From sequence record MK962753.1: DNA of 64,000 bases; one strand, written 5' to 3'. The translations under genes were made by a program, and so were the position numbers. The notes below the pieces were generated by a model. That model was not told where the DNA came from. It saw nothing but the letters and a program-made list of their open reading frames with translations, and ran no database searches. This stretch comes from Shigella phage JK32. Below, piece after piece: positions 1-22,106 of the stretch (its first letter is position 1; every line of letters starts with the position of its first letter).

Positions 1-1733
1 TTTGGAACAACCGTTACATCGTCGGAGATCAACACCCTAACCGCTTCTGACATTTTAGAAACTCGATGTTCACCGAATCCAGCCGATACACGGCATGTAT
101 AAACGCCAGTAGATGTTAATTGTGCATGATCTTCGCCATATACATTTCGTTGTTCAATTCCTGCTGGGAAAAGATCCTCACCATCTTTAAACCAACGGTA
201 ACGAACTGGCAAAGCATCATTAGACGTTGCCTTGATGGTAAGCGCCCATTGTCCACCGGAGCGAACTTTAACTGCTTTCGGTTGTACAGTGATCTCTAAC
301 GTTGCCTTTGAGTTATCAACTGTCACCTGAACTGCATTAGACTCAGCCGAAATTCTGTGATTCTGGATACCCATAGAAACTTTACATTTATATTGACCTT
401 CGTCTGCTTTAGTGATTGAGGAAAAATGCAAAGTTTTAGATGTTTTTCCAGGAATCAACTCATCATTTTTATACCACTGATAATCAAGTTTATAATGTTC
501 GTAGTCTGTCTCTGCTTCACAAATAAGAGTTTGTGAGGAACTAACTCGAACATTGGTTAACTGCTGTGGTTGTTGAGTGATTCGAATTGTTGGCGCAGCA
601 CCGACAAGAAGATCCGCTTCTTGTGATTCTGAAACCATATTATCACCGTAAGTCACTTTTGCTTTATATTTCGCCTGATTTAATTCCGCAGTTGCTGGTG
701 CAATGTGGAGATCTTTATTAGTTGCGCCAACAATTGGTTTAAATTCATCTTCACCATTTTTCTTGATGTACCATTGAACTTTTACTGGTTCATAGTTTGT
801 TGCATAATCAACACTGAACAAACCTAAAGCACCAGCACCCACATTTATTGTGAGTGGTTGTTTAGTGAATCGAAAGAACGATCGACCTTCGACTGTAACG
901 TGACAATCTTTTGAATAGATCGTTGTTTCTGCTTGACGAACTTCAAGACGCCATACACCCTCGTCTTTTTTCGTGACGTGGGTTATAGTTAATGCAGTGC
1001 CGTCTTGATCCAACACCATCCTATCGTTGTGAATCCACACATATGATAAAGGACGAGTTTTGTCATCGGTTGTCACCTGTGCTTGTAGTTCAAGTCTTCC
1101 ATCTTCTGGAACTGTAACCGCTGATGGGTAATGTTCCTGAATATGAACTTTAGGAGCATCTTTATTTTGTTCCACTACTACAGGACTGATCCAATAGTGA
1201 GAACGTGCATCATCGGTAACAAATACCTTACAAGTATAGTTGCCAAAATCCTCATAACCAACTCGATCTACATGCACGTTTTTTTGACGGATTTTATCTG
1301 GATTTAACTGAATGTGGTTTTTATACCAAATAGTATCAAATTGCTTGTTATCTTCGATGAACGGAGTAACAAAAATATCCAATTCTTCGCCTAAACGCTT
1401 ATAAATGTAGGTCGGAGATTGATCCTGTGGTGCAAGGAAGGTGCGACGTTCAACAAGAATAGGCTTAATATCAACCGATTCAAGCGGATTATCTTTCAGC
1501 TTAACTTTCGCTGTATACGTGCCGAATTGATCTTGAGTCATTTCAGCAATATACAGAGATTGATCTGGTTCTGCAACCTGATCTGATGGTACGCTTTGAC
1601 CGTTTAGCTTCCATTCTACGATATAGTCTTTAAAATCTGCGGTACTTACTACGAGCTTAAGAACAAGTTCATGTCCTACAGACGCGTAGACCGGACCCAT
1701 AGTTTGATGTAAAATATTGATTTTATCAGACAT
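1..1733 (-). CDS. hoc: Hoc-like capsid decoration protein with tandem Ig-like domains (partial; C-terminus runs off window start)
   Basis: Open frame from ATG at 1733 to the window edge, SD AGAGGA upstream; repeated ~90-aa units with W-Y/F-K-N ... Y-x-C-x-V pattern; absent from ORF track because no stop in window; sits beside uvsW as in T4. Confidence 0.5.
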   Translation of the reverse strand, partial: MSDKINILHQTMGPVYASVGHELVLKLVVSTADFKDYIVEWKLNGQSVPSDQVAEPDQSLYIAEMTQDQFGTYTAKVKLKDNPLESVDIKPILVERRTFLAPQDQSPTYIYKRLGEELDIFVTPFIEDNKQFDTIWYKNHIQLNPDKIRQKNVHVDRVGYEDFGNYTCKVFVTDDARSHYWISPVVVEQNKDAPKVHIQEHYPSAVTVPEDGRLELQAQVTTDDKTRPLSYVWIHNDRMVLDQDGTALTITHVTKKDEGVWRLEVRQAETTIYSKDCHVTVEGRSFFRFTKQPLTINVGAGALGLFSVDYATNYEPVKVQWYIKKNGEDEFKPIVGATNKDLHIAPATAELNQAKYKAKVTYGDNMVSESQEADLLVGAAPTIRITQQPQQLTNVRVSSSQTLICEAETDYEHYKLDYQWYKNDELIPGKTSKTLHFSSITKADEGQYKCKVSMGIQNHRISAESNAVQVTVDNSKATLEITVQPKAVKVRSGGQWALTIKATSNDALPVRYRWFKDGEDLFPAGIEQRNVYGEDHAQLTSTGVYTCRVSAGFGEHRVSKMSEAVRVLISDDVTVVP

Positions 1734-1811
1734 GTAATATCCTCTTTTTTAATTGCATAACGGAACTACAATTAAAAACATAACAAATATTTCACAACTT
1801 TTACACTCTTA

Positions 1812-18069: not shown

Positions 18070-18782
18070 AGATCCTTATTGGCTTCAAATACTGCCTTTG
18101 CGAATCCTCGCGGGGTAAGTGACCTGATAGTCTTTGTTCTGGTTCCTTTTCCGCCTAGCTTAGAATGCTGTTTGCTGTACCCTTTATTAATCGGCAACGG
18201 TTTCTTTTCTGGCATTATAAAGCCTTGTCCGGTCCATAAGCAAGTCTTTTTCGGGTACATATCACGGGAGGCAATATACTCAGGAAACGTAGGATGTATA
18301 TCATCTTCCGGCAAATAACCGCCATATTCCCACGGATGGAACATGTAATCAGGCTTACGCCACATACTAGAGATAACGCTTACAGGATTCTCTATCATGT
18401 AGGGAACTCCTAGCCATTCACCCAAATAAGCGGTTATTTTAGCTGCCCGTACATCATGAACTTGAATCAATGGTCCTTGCTCTCGTTTCTTTCGTTCAAA
18501 GTGTGCAGCGCCACTAACAGCTAAATTGGTGCACGGTGGGAATGCAAATATAATATCCGGTTTCCCCCATTCAAGGTCCATTGCTCTTTCCAGCCAGTTC
18601 AAATCAATCCATGTGTTTACATAGGTAATGTTTGGATGTTCAAATCGGGTATTATACTTTTTGTATGTGCCGTGGTCGCCATCGTCAGCATTAAAGCAGA
18701 TCACCTTATGACCTGCTTTAGCCCATTCTAGCCCCATTATCCCCGATCCGTCAAAGTTGCAGAATATTAATTTTTGTTTCAC
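18066..18782 (-). CDS. truncated C5-cytosine methyltransferase-like protein (SAM-dependent MTase core, no obvious target-recognition domain)
   Basis: 238 aa; motif I-like FDGSG, motif IV-like FPPCTNLAVSG, motif VI-like ENP in canonical order; GTG start overlapping upstream stop (GTGA). Confidence 0.55.
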   Translation of the reverse strand: MKQKLIFCNFDGSGIMGLEWAKAGHKVICFNADDGDHGTYKKYNTRFEHPNITYVNTWIDLNWLERAMDLEWGKPDIIFAFPPCTNLAVSGAAHFERKKREQGPLIQVHDVRAAKITAYLGEWLGVPYMIENPVSVISSMWRKPDYMFHPWEYGGYLPEDDIHPTFPEYIASRDMYPKKTCLWTGQGFIMPEKKPLPINKGYSKQHSKLGGKGTRTKTIRSLTPRGFAKAVFEANKDL

Positions 18783-19030
18783 GCTGCCCCCATTGGTTTG
18801 ATAGTAACAGAATCTAAAAGACCTTTGTTAGCCAGTTCGCGGCAAGTTTTCAGATCCGTAACTTCCCAGCCAGCCGCAATCAGGTTATCGATGAGGATGT
18901 TAGCAACTTCCTCGCTCATGAAAGAGCACTGTTTGCCGATGGTGTAGCGTACACGCTGTAATTTCAGTTTACGGAAGCCTTTAACGTTCAGGTCTTTAGC
19001 GATTTTCTTTGCGGTTTCGATGTTAGCCAT
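18779..19030 (-). CDS. hypothetical small protein (83 aa), first gene of operon
   Basis: SD GGAGAA; early promoter directly upstream. Confidence 0.6.
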   Translation of the reverse strand: MANIETAKKIAKDLNVKGFRKLKLQRVRYTIGKQCSFMSEEVANILIDNLIAAGWEVTDLKTCRELANKGLLDSVTIKPMGAA

Positions 19031-19070
19031 TGTTTGATTCTCCTAAGTAGTATCTCGTCTTGATGTGTGT

Positions 19071-19098
19071 AGTATAGGGGATCTCCCGATCCCCGTCA
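19071..19098 (-). promoter_or_regulatory. early promoter with palindromic spacer
   Basis: TTGACG, spacer GGGGATCGGGAGATCCCC-type palindrome, TATACT. Confidence 0.65.
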
Positions 19099-19114
19099 AC
19101 AACTTTTTTTAAAA

Positions 19115-19396
19115 TTATTCGTGATTAGTTTCGATGTTGTACATTTTGCACCAGTTCAGCCAATCGCCCAGATCTTGATAGTTGATGCTTTTATCTGCTG
19201 CCATCGTTTTTGTCTTGATACCCATATGTGCGTTATGAGTAAGCATTTTTACAGTGAACTCAATTTTATCGCCTTTAGCTTTAACATCAACCAGTTTGGT
19301 CCACTGGCTACCAGCGCCGCGAATGTTCATACCAACGATGTTTCCGATGTATGCTTCTTTGTTTTTCAGGATTTCGGTTGCTTTGATGAATTTCAT
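19115..19396 (-). CDS. hypothetical small protein (93 aa)
   Basis: ORF with SD GGAGAG; early promoter upstream. Confidence 0.6.
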   Translation of the reverse strand: MKFIKATEILKNKEAYIGNIVGMNIRGAGSQWTKLVDVKAKGDKIEFTVKMLTHNAHMGIKTKTMAADKSINYQDLGDWLNWCKMYNIETNHE

Positions 19397-19429
19397 TTTT
19401 GACTCTCCAGTTCGTTTCGGTATGGGTGT

Positions 19430-19458
19430 ATTATGCTATGTTCTTACTTTGGTGTCAA
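19430..19458 (-). promoter_or_regulatory. early promoter
   Basis: TTGACA, 17 nt, CATAAT; inverted repeat flanks -10; conserved ACACCCATCGAAACGA downstream. Confidence 0.65.
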
Positions 19459-19466
19459 CAACTTTT

Positions 19467-19736
19467 TTAGATATTTTCAGAAATAAATTTTAAAACTTGA
19501 CGTAAATGCTTCTCATCTTTGATAGTCGCCGGAAGTTCTTCTTTTACTTCCTGTGCAAGATAGATATTGCCGTTCCAAGTGAAAGATCCGTCTTCGTTTA
19601 CGCGATAGCTGAACATCCATTCGCAATCATTTTCGATTTCATATACACACAGAAGGGTGTAATCTTCAAAGCTATTGATTTCAAGGTCGAGGCCGTGACG
19701 TTTTGCAAAGTTGGTAGTGGTTTTAGTCAATGCCAT
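19467..19736 (-). CDS. hypothetical small protein (89 aa)
   Basis: ORF with SD AGGAGAA. Confidence 0.6.
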   Translation of the reverse strand: MALTKTTTNFAKRHGLDLEINSFEDYTLLCVYEIENDCEWMFSYRVNEDGSFTWNGNIYLAQEVKEELPATIKDEKHLRQVLKFISENI

Positions 19737-19776
19737 TGTTTGATTCTCCTAAGTAGTATCTCGTTTCGATGGGTGT

Positions 19777-19805
19777 ATTATGATATAGGCGTGATCTGGT
19801 GTCAA
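19777..19805 (-). promoter_or_regulatory. early promoter
   Basis: TTGACA, 17 nt, CATAAT. Confidence 0.65.
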
Positions 19806-19828
19806 CAACTTTTTTAAAATTTAGGCAA

Positions 19829-19852
19829 TAAAAAGCCGACACTAAGGTCGGC
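19829..19852 (-). terminator. rho-independent terminator
   Basis: GCCGACCTTAGTGTCGGC hairpin plus U-run on minus strand. Confidence 0.65.
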
Positions 19853-19857
19853 ACATT

Positions 19858-20112
19858 TTAAAAATTCTTGCTATATATGCAAGCCTCATAATCTAGAGGA
19901 TGACCGCCAATCCTACCAGGCTTAATATTCCAACCGCATCGATATTTGCTGACCATGCTAACCGTTTCGGTTCTTAGAGCATTTCTTTGCAAATCATACC
20001 CCCTAAATTCTTGTCTATAAGGACAGTCCGCTTTGCAAGTTGGCGGTTCTACGTCATTTAGCGGGTCAGAAGCAGTTGGCTTTATTATCAATTCTTTGTT
20101 TGCAATAATCAT
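19858..20112 (-). CDS. hypothetical Cys-rich ORF overlapping 3' end of upstream gene
   Basis: Open frame between 59-aa gene and terminator; start uncertain (ATG at 20112 or 20142); no clear SD. Confidence 0.35.
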   Translation of the reverse strand: MIIANKELIIKPTASDPLNDVEPPTCKADCPYRQEFRGYDLQRNALRTETVSMVSKYRCGWNIKPGRIGGHPLDYEACIYSKNF

Positions 20113-20245
20113 AAGCACATCCCATTGAAGGCAATTTAACATCTTCGCAATAAGTGTTGAATCCGTCAAATACAATCACTTCGTATTTGACTCCATCGGC
20201 GATAGCTTTTACTTTATACCATCCATGCTTGTATAAAATCTTCAT
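20066..20245 (-). CDS. hypothetical small Cys-rich protein (59 aa)
   Basis: ATG at 20245 with SD GAGGGAAAT; track start is TTG. Confidence 0.5.
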   Translation of the reverse strand: MKILYKHGWYKVKAIADGVKYEVIVFDGFNTYCEDVKLPSMGCAYDYCKQRIDNKANCF

Positions 20246-20276
20246 CTTTATTTCCCTCAATCTCGTTTCGATGGGT

Positions 20277-20305
20277 GTATTATGCTATACACAGGATCTA
20301 GTGTC
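20277..20305 (-). promoter_or_regulatory. early promoter
   Basis: TTGACA, 17 nt, CATAAT. Confidence 0.65.
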
Positions 20306-20329
20306 AACAACTTTTTAAAATTTTATGCA

Positions 20330-20353
20330 ATAAAAAAGCCGACACTAAGGTCG
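20330..20353 (-). terminator. rho-independent terminator
   Basis: Same hairpin as 19829..19852 followed by U6 on minus. Confidence 0.65.
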
Positions 20354-20363
20354 GCTAATAAAA

Positions 20364-20669
20364 TCATTTAGACAAATAATCATTCTGTGCAATCCGGTCG
20401 GCATGTTCCGGCGTTACGTCAATTGCAATCACTTTAACGCGCGCTTTCTTGACTGAATTTTCTCGTAGCCAGTGCGTGTGACCGTGCACATTTTTATATT
20501 TTGATGCGGTTTCGAAGGTACGGATCGGACCTGGGTAATCAGCGTAAAGGATCTCTAGGTCATCGGTGATGTAAAAATATACGTTGTAATTACTGTTCTC
20601 TAGCTTAAGCAGAGACTTTCGGAACATTGGGAGATTTTCGCGGGTAAATTCAAAGATATTATCTTTCAT
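20364..20669 (-). CDS. HxHW-family small protein, paralog A
   Basis: 101 aa; motifs YFYITDDL ... HGHTHW ... VIAIDV..ADR shared with five neighbouring ORFs. Confidence 0.65.
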   Translation of the reverse strand: MKDNIFEFTRENLPMFRKSLLKLENSNYNVYFYITDDLEILYADYPGPIRTFETASKYKNVHGHTHWLRENSVKKARVKVIAIDVTPEHADRIAQNDYLSK

Positions 20670-20692
20670 AGTATTATCCTCAATAGTTGGAT

Positions 20693-20713
20693 GAAAAGGG
20701 GGCTTAACGCCCC
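20693..20713 (-). terminator. hairpin terminator (likely partial)
   Basis: GGGGGCGTTAAGCCCCC followed by TTTTC on minus. Confidence 0.45.
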
Positions 20714-20719
20714 CATATA

Positions 20720-21007
20720 TTAAAACAGTCCTTCCTGTACACCGTAGTAGAGTTCGTCGCTGATAATTTCATTAATGCGACGGTGTGCATATTCCTGATT
20801 TGCGAAGTTGTCAGCAAGTTCTACTTTAGTTTCGCCGTCATGAGTCCATTTAGTGATAACTTTACCGTCTGCAAATTTGAAGTTGAACTCTTTAGCTACT
20901 GCATCGCGTACCAGACGTGCAAACTTATTGTTGCGGATTGCATTATCGGTTTCGTGTGCAGCGTGAGCAAATTTGTTAACTTTCAGCGTGATAGTGATGT
21001 ATGCCAT
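20720..21007 (-). CDS. hypothetical small protein (95 aa)
   Basis: SD GGAGAA; early promoter upstream. Confidence 0.6.
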   Translation of the reverse strand: MAYITITLKVNKFAHAAHETDNAIRNNKFARLVRDAVAKEFNFKFADGKVITKWTHDGETKVELADNFANQEYAHRRINEIISDELYYGVQEGLF

Positions 21008-21053
21008 AATTTGATTCTCCTAGTTAGAAAGTGTATCTCGTTTCGATGGGTGT

Positions 21054-21082
21054 ATTATGCAATACACCCGATCTTATGTCAA
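21054..21082 (-). promoter_or_regulatory. early promoter
   Basis: TTGACA, 17 nt, CATAAT; upstream gene stop abuts the -35. Confidence 0.65.
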
Positions 21083-21088
21083 CACTTT

Positions 21089-21367
21089 TTATAAAATAAT
21101 TTTTTGATATTTTTCTATGATGTTCGTGTAATCCACATCAACCGCTATCACCGTTGCTTCGAATCCACCGTTTAGCCAATGGCTATGGTCATGATCGTGA
21201 AAGAAACCAAGACCAGTACGAAGACCTTCTTTATATTCGGCGCGTACATTTAGATCATCATCGATAAACAGATAAAACCATGAATTTTTACTAGGATTGA
21301 TGATACAACCTTTCAGATTAGGGAGAATATCACGACTAAGAATAAACTTATCACCTACTTTGAACAT
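21089..21367 (-). CDS. HxHW-family small protein, paralog B
   Basis: ATG at 21367 with SD GTGAGGA; motifs WFYLFIDDDL ... HDHSHW ... VIAVDV. Confidence 0.65.
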   Translation of the reverse strand: MFKVGDKFILSRDILPNLKGCIINPSKNSWFYLFIDDDLNVRAEYKEGLRTGLGFFHDHDHSHWLNGGFEATVIAVDVDYTNIIEKYQKIIL

Positions 21368-21371
21368 AATA

Positions 21372-21692
21372 TTAGTCCTCACTTATAAGGTCAAACCAAT
21401 TGTTTTTCGCATAATGCTTAATGCGTGCTTGATCTGCTTCCGCTGGTGATAGATTCCATGCAACCACTACAACTTCTGACGCATCGTCATCCGTTTCTGA
21501 TACCCAATGATTATGATTCATACAATTGTTTGCTATCGCGTGAGCAAATGATTTCATCACTGGAGACGTATAATCATAGTAACGGATTTTCAGATTTTCA
21601 TCAACGTACAAATAGATCGTATAAGGTTTATATTCAGTAACCAGTAACAGACAGTTACGCAATTCTGGGAAAATATTTTTAGTTAATTTCAT
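21372..21692 (-). CDS. HxHW-family small protein, paralog C
   Basis: 106 aa; YLYVDENL ... HNHW ... VVVAWNL..AEADQ; SD GGAGAA. Confidence 0.65.
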   Translation of the reverse strand: MKLTKNIFPELRNCLLLVTEYKPYTIYLYVDENLKIRYYDYTSPVMKSFAHAIANNCMNHNHWVSETDDDASEVVVVAWNLSPAEADQARIKHYAKNNWFDLISED

Positions 21693-21894
21693 ATTCTAGT
21701 TCTCCGTAATACACGGTAATCCATTTTTCTTCATACTTTGTATCTTTCCAACACACAATCCCGTTTACTGTGCAATCTTTGGAATTGACGAATGATTCAT
21801 ATTGTTCTGCATCTTCCATCATTGCATGAGCGGTCTTTTCATCGAATATATCGCAGATCGCTTTATATGCTCGATAATCTTTAAATTTGCTCAT
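21679..21894 (-). CDS. hypothetical small protein (71 aa), tandem duplicate 1 (MSKFKDY family)
   Basis: N-terminus MSKFKDYRAY, paralogous to adjacent 21897..22106; ATG at 21894. Confidence 0.55.
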   Translation of the reverse strand: MSKFKDYRAYKAICDIFDEKTAHAMMEDAEQYESFVNSKDCTVNGIVCWKDTKYEEKWITVYYGELEYEIN

Positions 21895-21896
21895 AA

Positions 21897-22106
21897 TTAA
21901 GACCACTCAAGAGTTTTTGAAAACACATCTATCCATTGTTGAGTATATGCGGTTTCTTTCCATGATACAATACCAGTCGAATAATGGTTTTTGTTTCCAG
22001 AAAAGGACGGGCATTTTGAGGCATCTTCCATCATCTTTTCGGCGAACTCTGGTTCGTATACTCGCAAGATCTGTTGATATGCTTTATAATCTTTAAATTT
22101 GCTCAT
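21897..22106 (-). CDS. hypothetical small protein (69 aa), tandem duplicate 2 (MSKFKDY family)
   Basis: N-terminus MSKFKDYKAY; SD AAGGTAG. Confidence 0.55.
   Translation of the reverse strand: MSKFKDYKAYQQILRVYEPEFAEKMMEDASKCPSFSGNKNHYSTGIVSWKETAYTQQWIDVFSKTLEWS

What the first reader, a model, noticed from the sequence alone, without database searches (positions are those of the whole stretch)
19858..20245. Two overlapping Cys-rich ORFs in different frames within one transcription unit
The 59-aa ORF 20066..20245 and a downstream open frame ending at 19858 overlap by ~47 nt in a +1 frame relation; the second lacks a convincing SD, and the terminator follows only after it. This could be an independent overlapping gene, a frameshifted or pseudogenised single gene of ~145 aa, or a programmed frameshift.
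Basis: seen in the sequence. Interest (0 to 1): 0.35.

Follow-up and report, generated by a model that had tools for sequence, protein, structure and literature searches.

The report
Split two-domain phage gene, overlapping halves
The two overlapping reading frames are real, separately conserved small early genes of an RB49-like coliphage that together correspond to the two halves of a protein encoded as a single gene in other phages; this is an ordinary split, coupled gene pair, with one oddity: this phage group has lost the usual start codon of the second half.

Summary
On the minus strand, one promoter-to-terminator unit holds ORF1 (20245..20066, 59 aa) and ORF2 (20112..19858, 84 aa from the first plausible ATG). 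They overlap by 47 nt, with ORF2 in the +1 frame. The window is a Krischvirus (RB49-like), and the pair is RB49p196/RB49p195 inside a mobile PeSL early-gene cassette.

Both proteins are conserved elsewhere. In seven other lineages the ORF1 homologue is followed, always in the +1 frame, by an ORF2 homologue. That homologue has its own ATG embedded in the ORF1 codons for RI(D/N)A, with an 11 or 20 nt overlap.

Family-wide, the ORF2 domain (four invariant Cys, LQRNALRxE, RCGWN, GGHPLDY) is usually the C-terminal half of a 117-188 aa protein. Two such fusions carry an ORF1-type N-terminal domain. The pair is therefore a gene split at a domain boundary, not a sequencing error.

A prfB-like frameshift is unlikely. 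The ORF1 stop is TGA in some copies and CGA in others, and there is no slippery site or stimulator.

In Krischvirus the ancestral ATG is ATA and its Shine-Dalgarno is gone, so the true ORF2 start is unproven. ATG 20112 has only a weak SD; TTG 20091 is the alternative. Function is unknown.

The parts
20337..20356 (-). Terminator hairpin of the upstream cassette, followed by a T-run; part of the upstream PeSL copy
   Evidence: AGCCGACCTTAGTGTCGGCT + TTTTTT. The same element is annotated as a terminator in phage GEC-3S.
20260..20336 (-). Upstream copy of the 77-nt PeSL-type direct repeat (AT-rich tract, promoter, leader) bounding the cassette
   Evidence: 88% identical to 19758..19834, spacing 502 nt. 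PeSL concept from PMC2839356.
20279..20307 (-). Sigma-70 early promoter of the unit (TTGACA, 17 nt, CATAAT)
   Evidence: 11 of 12 consensus matches
20254..20258 (-). Shine-Dalgarno GAGGG of ORF1
   Evidence: duplex energy -6.1 kcal/mol
20066..20245 (-). ORF1, 59 aa (= RB49p196, phrog_30492). Predicted four-strand sheet plus C-terminal helix. Equivalent to the N-terminal domain of the fused family members.
20066..20112 (-). 47-nt overlap of ORF1 and ORF2 (ORF2 in the +1 frame)
20120..20123 (-). Weak SD-like GGGA, 7 nt upstream of ATG 20112; mutated to GAGA in phage GoldenSnicker
20110..20112 (-). Most likely ORF2 start codon (ATG); invariant in all Krischvirus copies
20089..20091 (-). Alternative ORF2 start (TTG) with no SD, two codons upstream of the ancestral start position
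20083..20085 (-). ATA codon at the position where every non-Krischvirus ORF1-type relative has the ORF2 ATG (ancestral start lost)
19858..20112 (-). ORF2, 84 aa from ATG 20112 (= RB49p195). Conserved Cys4 domain with C-x3-C, LQRNALRxE, RCGWN, GGHPLDY..C. Equivalent to the C-terminal domain of the fused family members.
19835..19852 (-). Intrinsic terminator closing the unit
   Evidence: GCCGACCTTAGTGTCGGC + TTTTT
19758..19834 (-). Downstream copy of the PeSL direct repeat. It carries the promoter (19805..19777) of the next cassette, the ORF at 19736..19467.

Best explanation
This is a single early transcription unit: a PeSL-flanked accessory cassette of an RB49-like phage that carries two separate cistrons. 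ORF1 (59 aa) and ORF2 (about 75-84 aa) are the N- and C-terminal halves of a small two-domain protein family. Many phages encode that family as one polypeptide of about 125-140 aa, and it has been split repeatedly at the domain boundary. After a split, the halves stay tightly linked by overlapping stop and start signals. I infer that they reassemble as a heterodimer (Rosetta-stone logic). In this window ORF2 is most likely translated by its own initiation at ATG 20112, which has a weak GGGA Shine-Dalgarno. TTG 20091 is less likely. Ribosomes translating ORF1 would open the local mRNA structure and so help this initiation. No frameshift is needed. Shown here: the anatomy, the conservation of both proteins, the constant +1 arrangement with an internal ATG in relatives, the existence of fused homologues, and selection on the ORF2 frame inside the overlap. 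Inferred: the start codon actually used, the coupling, heterodimer formation, and zinc binding by the four invariant cysteines. The biochemical function is unknown. My best guess is a non-essential early accessory or host-interaction factor.
For: Identity and context:
- The region is 92-97% identical to Krischvirus genomes, and the pair is annotated as RB49p196 and RB49p195.
- The cassette is missing from many Krischvirus records, including Phi1 and GEC-3S, which cover only 69% of the query. It is bounded by 77-nt direct repeats. Arbiol et al. list RB49 ORFs 195/196 as unique relative to phi1 and lying in a hyperplastic region (PMC2839356).

Separate genes in relatives:
- In hz69 and L069, L008 and L066, L022, L034, L063, L064, and L067/L068, the ORF1 homologue is followed in the +1 frame by an ORF2 homologue.
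- That homologue starts at an ATG inside the ORF1 codons RI(D/N)A, 15-16 codons before the first Cys. The overlap is 11 or 20 nt, and SD duplex energies range from -2.5 to -8.1.
- A profile search with ORF1 found 25 clusters, all 55-63 aa.

Split two-domain family:
- An exhaustive HMM search with the ORF2 profile found only 45 clusters. In about 30 of them the domain is the C-terminal part of a 117-188 aa protein.
- The N-terminal domains of those proteins match the upstream partners seen in split loci, which are joined by ATGA or GTGA overlaps.
- P0056 (on 4 contigs) and P0012 are fusions with an ORF1-type N-domain: phrog_30492 E = 2e-5 and 3e-12.

ORF2 frame is under selection:
- Five distinct substitutions at 20077-20044 among Krischvirus-like copies are all synonymous in the ORF2 frame and non-synonymous or stop-removing in the ORF1 frame.
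- The window ORF2 keeps all 20 family-invariant residues.

Against a frameshift:
- The ORF1 stop is TGA in 9 aligned copies and CGA in 4. That change is silent in ORF2.
Against: - Every non-Krischvirus relative has the ORF2 ATG at the position that is ATA in Krischvirus (20085..20083). The SD-forming K-G codons (AAGG/GAGGG) are AAACAAAG here.
- The replacement start, ATG 20112, has only a weak SD (-4.9, and -2.7 in GoldenSnicker) and lies in a comparatively structured stretch: mean unpaired probability 0.31, against 0.46 for the ORF1 start.
- The stretch between 20112 and 20083 shows no variation among copies, so selection on the proposed N-terminal extension cannot be read.
- Two of the 13 aligned copies (UPWr_E1, KMB43) carry 1-nt homopolymer insertions that break ORF2.
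- There is no expression data for this phage group.
Confidence: 0.7

Rival explanations
1. ORF2 in Krischvirus is a decaying or barely translated remnant. After the cassette was acquired, the internal ATG and SD were lost, and ORF2 now drifts while only ORF1 is made efficiently.
For: - The ancestral ATG is ATA and the ancestral SD is lost in all Krischvirus copies.
- The SD at the substitute ATG is weak.
- UPWr_E1 and KMB43 have frameshifting insertions in ORF2, and KMB43 has three further private non-synonymous changes.
- L070 shows that ORF1 homologues can persist after ORF2 is truncated.
Against: - ORF2 is intact in 11 of 13 aligned copies and in the metagenomic copy L031, and it retains all 20 family-invariant residues.
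- Five of five substitutions at 20077-20044 are silent in the ORF2 frame. From the expected synonymous fraction of 0.21, my arithmetic gives a chance of about 4e-4.
- Outside KMB43, the ratio in the ORF2-only part is 4 synonymous to 3 non-synonymous changes.
- Both frameshifts lie in homopolymer runs and may be sequencing errors.
Confidence: 0.15
2. A programmed +1 ribosomal frameshift fuses the two frames. The shift would occur at AAA-G (20083..20080) or at the ORF1 stop (TTC TGA C, 20071..20065). The product, about 128-133 aa, would recreate the ancestral two-domain protein alongside free ORF1.
For: - The frame relation is +1.
- The ancestral independent start of ORF2 is gone in Krischvirus.
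- A shift at AAA-G would give ...RIDNK|PTASDP..., which is colinear with the natural fusions P0012 (...RIDAA|APADP...) and P0056.
- tRNA-Lys can re-pair on AAG, and UGA-C is a weak termination context (both from general knowledge, not tested here).
Against: - The stop at 20068..20066 is CGA in RB49, KMB43, OZ035808 and Sf20.
- Re-pairing from UUC to UCU is poor.
- There is no SD-like stimulator upstream of either candidate site.
- The A-site codon after AAA is the common GCC.
- No sequence in the overlap is shared with the other +1 relatives, all of which have their own ATG and stops at different positions and of different identity.
- An in-frame ATG with some SD complementarity exists.
Confidence: 0.05
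3. A single gene of about 130-145 aa appears split because of a sequencing or assembly indel in this genome.
For: - Fused homologues exist.
- The fusion in L021 differs from its split relatives by one base in a C-run, which shows how small the difference between the two states is.
Against: - The same two-frame arrangement, with identical sequence across 20125..20069, occurs in 13 aligned, independently sequenced Krischvirus genomes.
- It also occurs in seven other lineages.
- The 25 ORF1-family clusters are all 55-63 aa.
Confidence: 0.02

Closest known systems
PeSL (promoter-early stem-loop) cassettes of RB49/phi1-type phages (Arbiol et al. 2010, PMC2839356; Comeau et al. 2014, PMC4122927)
   Same: A strong sigma-70 early promoter and a stem-loop terminator flank small ORFan genes. 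The flanks are direct repeats. The cassette is present in some close relatives and absent from others. RB49 ORFs 195/196 are named in that paper among the RB49-unique genes of a hyperplastic region.
   Different: This cassette holds two overlapping cistrons rather than a single ORFan gene. Its cargo also occurs outside T4-like phages, in a small E. coli phage, in prophages of Pseudomonas and Alcaligenes, in a Pusillimonas MAG contig and a Mycoplana contig, and in a phage deposited as a Desulfovibrio phage.
Translationally coupled overlapping gene pairs (ATGA/GTGA and longer overlaps)
   Same: Same strand and same transcript. The downstream start lies inside the end of the upstream gene, and both products are conserved. 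Other branches of this family use textbook ATGA or GTGA overlaps.
   Different: In the ORF1-type branch the overlap is 11 or 20 nt in the +1 frame. In Krischvirus it is 47-59 nt, with the ancestral start replaced by a distant, weakly signalled ATG.
Gene fission/fusion ('Rosetta stone') pairs
   Same: The two ORFs align, in order, with the N- and C-terminal domains of single-chain homologues (P0056, P0012). The break falls in the linker between the predicted domains.
   Different: Physical interaction of the two products has not been shown. The family has no known function or solved structure.
prfB (RF2) programmed +1 frameshift
   Same: +1 frame relation, and a UGA-C stop at the end of the upstream frame in this window.
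   Different: There is no CUU-U type slippery codon and no upstream SD-like stimulator. The stop is absent in 4 of 13 copies. Relatives have an independent ATG for the second frame.
Phage tail assembly chaperone G/GT -1 frameshift
   Same: Two overlapping frames in a phage could yield a short product and a fused product.
   Different: That system is a -1 shift on a slippery heptamer, in a late structural operon. Here the relation is +1, in an early accessory cassette, with no slippery heptamer.

Membership tests
PeSL-flanked early gene cassette (T4-type hyperplastic region) | Composite sigma-70 promoter plus stem-loop or terminator motif on both sides, as direct repeats | tested here: met
   Promoters at 20307..20279 and 19805..19777. 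Hairpins at 20356..20337 and 19852..19835. A 77-nt direct repeat at 88% identity.
PeSL-flanked early gene cassette (T4-type hyperplastic region) | Presence/absence polymorphism of the cassette among near-identical genomes, with breakpoints in the repeats | tested here: met
   16 of 58 Krischvirus-type records cover the whole query. Many others, including Phi1 and GEC-3S, cover only 69% of it. In GEC-3S the flanking genes are joined through one terminator-promoter unit. PMC2839356 lists ORFs 195/196 as RB49-unique.
Translationally coupled overlapping cistrons | Each product conserved as a separate protein in other genomes | tested here: met
   25 ORF1-type clusters of 55-63 aa. ORF2-type proteins of 72-78 aa starting with MQP or MRP.
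Translationally coupled overlapping cistrons | The downstream cistron has its own start codon and ribosome-binding site within or next to the end of the upstream cistron | tested here: inconclusive
   Met in all seven non-Krischvirus ORF1-type lineages: an ATG in RI(D/N)A, usually with an SD. In the window that ATG is ATA. The candidates are ATG 20112 (SD -4.9) and TTG 20091 (SD +0.6). Actual use cannot be tested with these tools.
Split (fission) form of a two-domain protein | Homologues exist in which both parts are one polypeptide, in the same order | tested here: met
   P0056 (128 aa, 4 contigs) and P0012 (124 aa). Residues 1-54 and 1-56 hit phrog_30492, and the C-terminal half hits the ORF2 profile.
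Split (fission) form of a two-domain protein | The two products associate physically | not testable with these tools
   The alignment used for AlphaFold2 had unpaired rows. The C-domain was modelled at low confidence, pLDDT about 60.
Programmed +1 ribosomal frameshift (prfB type) | Conserved slow or stop codon in the A site at the shift position | tested here: not met
   TGA at 20068..20066 is CGA in 4 of 13 Krischvirus copies. Stops differ in position and identity in the relatives.
Programmed +1 ribosomal frameshift (prfB type) | P-site codon that allows tRNA re-pairing in the +1 frame, plus an SD-like stimulator a few nt upstream | tested here: not met
   Before the stop, the shift would be UUC to UCU, which does not re-pair. 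AAA-G could re-pair, but it has no stimulator and is followed by a common codon. There is no SD-like sequence in 20100..20069.
phrog_30492 (ORF1) | Significant full-length match to the profile | tested here: met
   E = 7e-45 over residues 1-59 of a 63-position profile; function unknown.
Cys4 zinc-binding domain (ORF2) | Four invariant cysteines in a fixed pattern | tested here: met
   C26, C30, C59 and C78 are invariant in 25 sequences and recognisable in the remote members.
Cys4 zinc-binding domain (ORF2) | Metal binding, or similarity to a known zinc-finger fold | tested here: inconclusive

The most novel reading that the evidence does not exclude
Krischvirus has lost the internal ATG and SD that every other ORF1-type relative uses. 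It may therefore make the ORF2 domain mainly as an ORF1-ORF2 fusion through a +1 ribosomal frameshift, most plausibly tRNA-Lys slipping from AAA to AAG at 20083..20080. That would regenerate the ancestral two-domain protein at a fixed ratio to free ORF1, and would be a new kind of +1 recoding site in a T4-type phage.
Probability: 0.05. Interest if true: 0.6.

Novelty: new member of a known kind. Interest (0 to 1): 0.3.

Why it matters
The practical gain is mostly for annotation.

- **Inconsistent annotation.** RB49p195-type genes are annotated as 84 aa, as 44 aa, or not at all across Krischvirus records. The hz69 and Alcaligenes homologues of ORF2 are not called. The family-wide comparison fixes the reading frame and shows that the two ORFs belong together as halves of one functional unit.
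- **An undescribed family.** The comparison defines a rare protein family (45 clusters among 1.8 billion representatives). Its conserved Cys4 C-terminal domain is joined to, or translationally coupled with, at least five unrelated N-terminal partner types. It travels as a self-contained promoter-to-terminator cassette between very different phages.
- **Possible role.** That distribution is typical of accessory host-interaction or counter-defence genes, so the family is a reasonable candidate for functional screening.
- **An open point.** The loss of the ancestral start codon in Krischvirus is a small natural experiment on how a downstream cistron is re-initiated after its signals are lost.

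Tried and rejected
- **Family and sequence searches.** Pfam, NCBIfam, PHROGs and PDB sequence searches gave nothing for ORF2. ORF1 matched only phrog_30492, which has no known function.
- **Single-sequence search with ORF1.** It found only its own cluster. A profile of eight ORF1-type sequences taken from loci was needed to reach further.
- **AlphaFold2 of ORF2 alone.** With 16 sequences the mean pLDDT was 54, too low to use.
- **First combined alignment for the fused protein (A4).** MAFFT placed the ORF1 family on the C-domain, so it was discarded. A subset that aligns correctly was found by trial.
- **Literature search** for the RB49 locus tags and accessions found nothing.
- **Other candidate starts.** The strong SD-like AGGGGG before TTG 19992 was considered as an internal start. 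I rejected it because it comes from the conserved F-R-G-Y-D-L codons, is absent in hz69, and would remove the C-x3-C motif. The internal ATG 19956 used by some annotators (44 aa) was rejected for the same reason.
- **Transcriptional slippage** was rejected because the overlap contains no long homopolymer run.

Full report
**What is in the sequence.** On the minus strand, a near-consensus sigma-70 promoter (TTGACA-17-CATAAT, 20307..20279) is followed by a GAGGG Shine-Dalgarno and ORF1 (20245..20066, 59 aa, 4 Cys). A second frame, +1 relative to ORF1, is open from 20175 and ends at 19858. From its first well-placed ATG (20112) it encodes 84 aa with 4 Cys and overlaps ORF1 by 47 nt. The only terminator-like hairpin with a T-run lies after ORF2 (19852..19835).

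**Start signals.** The remark about the weak ribosome-binding site is also accurate. The SD:anti-SD duplex for ATG 20112 is -4.9 kcal/mol. ORF1 scores -6.1 and the neighbouring cassette genes -6.0 to -8.4. About one in ten random ATGs in the window score as well as -4.9, and 67% of reference gene starts score at least that well. TTG 20091 has no SD at all.

**Where it comes from.** The region is 92-97% identical to Krischvirus genomes (RB49-like T4-type coliphages). The two ORFs are RB49p196 and RB49p195.
- The unit is bounded by 77-nt direct repeats carrying the promoter and leader (19758..19834 and 20260..20336, 88% identical).
- It is present in only 16 of 58 matching records. Many others, including Phi1 and GEC-3S, lack it; in GEC-3S the flanking genes are joined through one terminator-promoter element.
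- This is the PeSL cassette architecture described by Arbiol et al., who list RB49 ORFs 195 and 196 among the genes absent from phi1 in a hyperplastic region (PMC2839356).
- Public annotation of ORF2 is inconsistent: 84 aa, 44 aa from an internal Met, or not annotated.

**Both ORFs are real proteins found elsewhere, in the same arrangement.** tblastn and locus retrieval found ORF1 and ORF2 homologues side by side in:
- the 43-kb E. coli phage hz69 and a relative (L004, L069);
- a lambdoid prophage of Pseudomonas cremoricolorata (L066) and the matching viral contig L008;
- Alcaligenes faecalis prophages (L067, L068);
- a Pusillimonas MAG contig (L064), a Mycoplana ramosa contig (L063), and two metagenomic contigs (L022, L034).

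In every one of these seven lineages ORF2 is in the +1 frame. It starts at an ATG embedded in the ORF1 codons for the C-terminal motif RI(D/N)A, 15-16 codons before the first cysteine, and overlaps ORF1 by 11 or 20 nt. The preceding K-G or E-G codons usually form an SD (AAGG, GAGGG), with duplex energies from -2.5 to -8.1. A profile search with ORF1 returned 25 clusters, all 55-63 aa and almost all ending in (D/N)AA.

**The two ORFs are nevertheless the two halves of one protein family.** An exhaustive HMM search of 1.84 billion representative proteins with the ORF2 profile found only 45 clusters. In about 30 of them the ORF2 domain is the C-terminal part of a 117-188 aa protein.
- The N-terminal parts fall into several unrelated types.
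- The same types turn up as separate upstream genes joined to a stand-alone ORF2 by ATGA or GTGA overlaps. Examples are the MKYAYITN... type in L010, L011, L014, L032, L037 and L046, and the METYEI...GGW type in L015, L020, L045, L050 and L057.
- For the ORF1 type, two fusions exist. P0056 (128 aa) is found on four contigs, and its residues 1-54 hit phrog_30492 at E = 2e-5. P0012 (124 aa, E = 3e-12) differs from its split relatives by one base in a C-run, so on its own it could be an assembly error.
- AlphaFold2 of P0012 gives a confident N-terminal domain (pLDDT about 95: four antiparallel strands and a helix, residues 1-55) followed by a low-confidence linker and C-domain. The split therefore falls at a domain boundary.

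The family has repeatedly been split or fused at this boundary. By Rosetta-stone reasoning the two products probably work as a complex; this is an inference.

**What is unusual in Krischvirus.** At the position of the ancestral ORF2 start, all Krischvirus copies have ATA (20085..20083), and the SD-forming codons are AAACAAAG. ORF1 is also extended by a few residues (…RIDNKANCF).
- The in-frame candidates are ATG 20112 and TTG 20091; both are invariant.
- In GoldenSnicker a G-to-A change at 20122 creates a stop in the ORF2 frame just upstream of these candidates, so starts further upstream are not required. The same change weakens the SD to -2.7.
- The ORF2 frame is clearly the one under selection through the overlap. 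Five distinct substitutions at 20077, 20068, 20062 (two different changes) and 20044 are all third-position silent changes in ORF2. In the ORF1 frame they change an amino acid or remove the stop. With an expected silent fraction of 0.21, the chance of this is about 4e-4 by my arithmetic.
- The window ORF2 retains all 20 residues that are invariant in the family.

**Frameshift hypothesis.**
- A prfB-like mechanism needs a conserved stop or slow codon, a P-site codon that can re-pair, and usually an upstream SD-like stimulator.
- The ORF1 stop (20068..20066) is CGA in RB49, KMB43, OZ035808 and Sf20, where ORF1 runs on for four more codons.
- UUC cannot re-pair on UCU, and nothing SD-like precedes the site.
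- The overlaps of the other +1 relatives share no sequence and have stops of different identity and position.
- The only re-pairing-competent site is AAA-G (20083..20080), which would give a fusion colinear with P0012 and P0056. It has no stimulator and is followed by a common codon.
- I rate recoding at about 5%. It remains the most novel reading not excluded.

**Decay hypothesis.** UPWr_E1 and KMB43 carry single-base homopolymer insertions that break ORF2, and KMB43 has three more private amino-acid changes. In L070 an ORF1 homologue survives with ORF2 truncated after ten codons, and that ORF1 has also lost both of its otherwise invariant cysteines. The cassette is therefore dispensable and can erode. 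In most Krischvirus copies, including this window, ORF2 is intact and shows the substitution pattern of a translated gene.

The unit behaves as a self-contained accessory cassette with its own promoter and terminator. It sits among structural genes in hz69, in the region next to the repressor and Cro genes in a lambdoid prophage, next to a metallo-beta-lactamase-fold gene in L071, and in PeSL cassettes in Krischvirus. I therefore guess a non-essential early host-interaction or counter-defence role, with low confidence.

**Verdict.** The feature is real and correctly described, and it is explained by ordinary biology. It is a split two-domain gene kept as an overlapping, probably coupled, bicistron in a known type of mobile early cassette. 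The loss of the ancestral internal start in Krischvirus is the one open point. The interest score is set low to moderate for that reason.

Noticed in passing
window 20364..20669, 21089..21367, 21372..21692 (minus strand): Three neighbouring early ORFs (101, about 92 and 106 aa) are distant paralogues of one another: 26-30% identity, blastp E from 5e-14 to 7e-6 in a three-sequence database. They share an H-x-H-W motif region. This looks like a small tandem family of PeSL cargo genes.
   Followed up: partly
window 18500..22000 (minus strand): Near-identical promoters (TTGACA-17-CATAAT) recur at 21082, 20307, 19805 and 19458. Several have the same GCCGACCTTAGTGTCGGC terminator just upstream. The region is a run of PeSL cassettes, and several downstream genes share the same leader and SD (CTACTTAGGAGAATCAAACAATG at both 19736 and 19030).
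   Followed up: partly
L005 (Nitratidesulfovibrio phage SRB7757, PV062637.1) 1205..1260 and 1750..1810: This 142-kb record is marked UNVERIFIED and has no annotation. Its ORF2 homologue is flanked by repeated AT-rich promoter-like elements (…AAAAAGTAGTTGACA…GGCTATTGTCTACTCA). These resemble the Krischvirus PeSL layout in a phage deposited as infecting a sulfate reducer.
   Followed up: no
L004 (phage hz69, ON556632.1) 1528..1752; L067/L068 (Alcaligenes faecalis): The ORF2 homologues are intact, with their own ATG. They are not annotated in the hz69 GenBank record and not called by the gene caller in the Alcaligenes contigs, probably because of the overlap.
   Followed up: yes
L070 4001..4180 and downstream: An ORF1 homologue has lost both otherwise invariant cysteines (YYED, EYAKD). 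It sits next to an ORF2 remnant cut off after ten codons (MRSNPSDTAK*). This hints that the ORF1 cysteines matter only when ORF2 is present.
   Followed up: partly
L006 (UPWr_E1) and L007 (KMB43), equivalent to window ~20004..20000 and ~19986: Single-base insertions in a G5 run and an A run break ORF2 in two deposited Krischvirus genomes. These may be real pseudogenes or homopolymer sequencing errors.
   Followed up: partly
L071 1502..2206: The gene after the fused ORF1-ORF2 homologue P0056 is a metallo-beta-lactamase-fold protein with a faint hit to the anti-Pycsar Apyc1 family. This is a weak hint that the family sits among counter-defence genes.
   Followed up: no
window 19992..20006 (minus strand): A very strong SD-like AGGGGG (duplex -10.6 kcal/mol) lies 6 nt before an in-frame TTG inside ORF2. 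It comes from the conserved R-G-Y-D-L codons and is probably not a start. It could pause ribosomes or permit a truncated product.
   Followed up: partly
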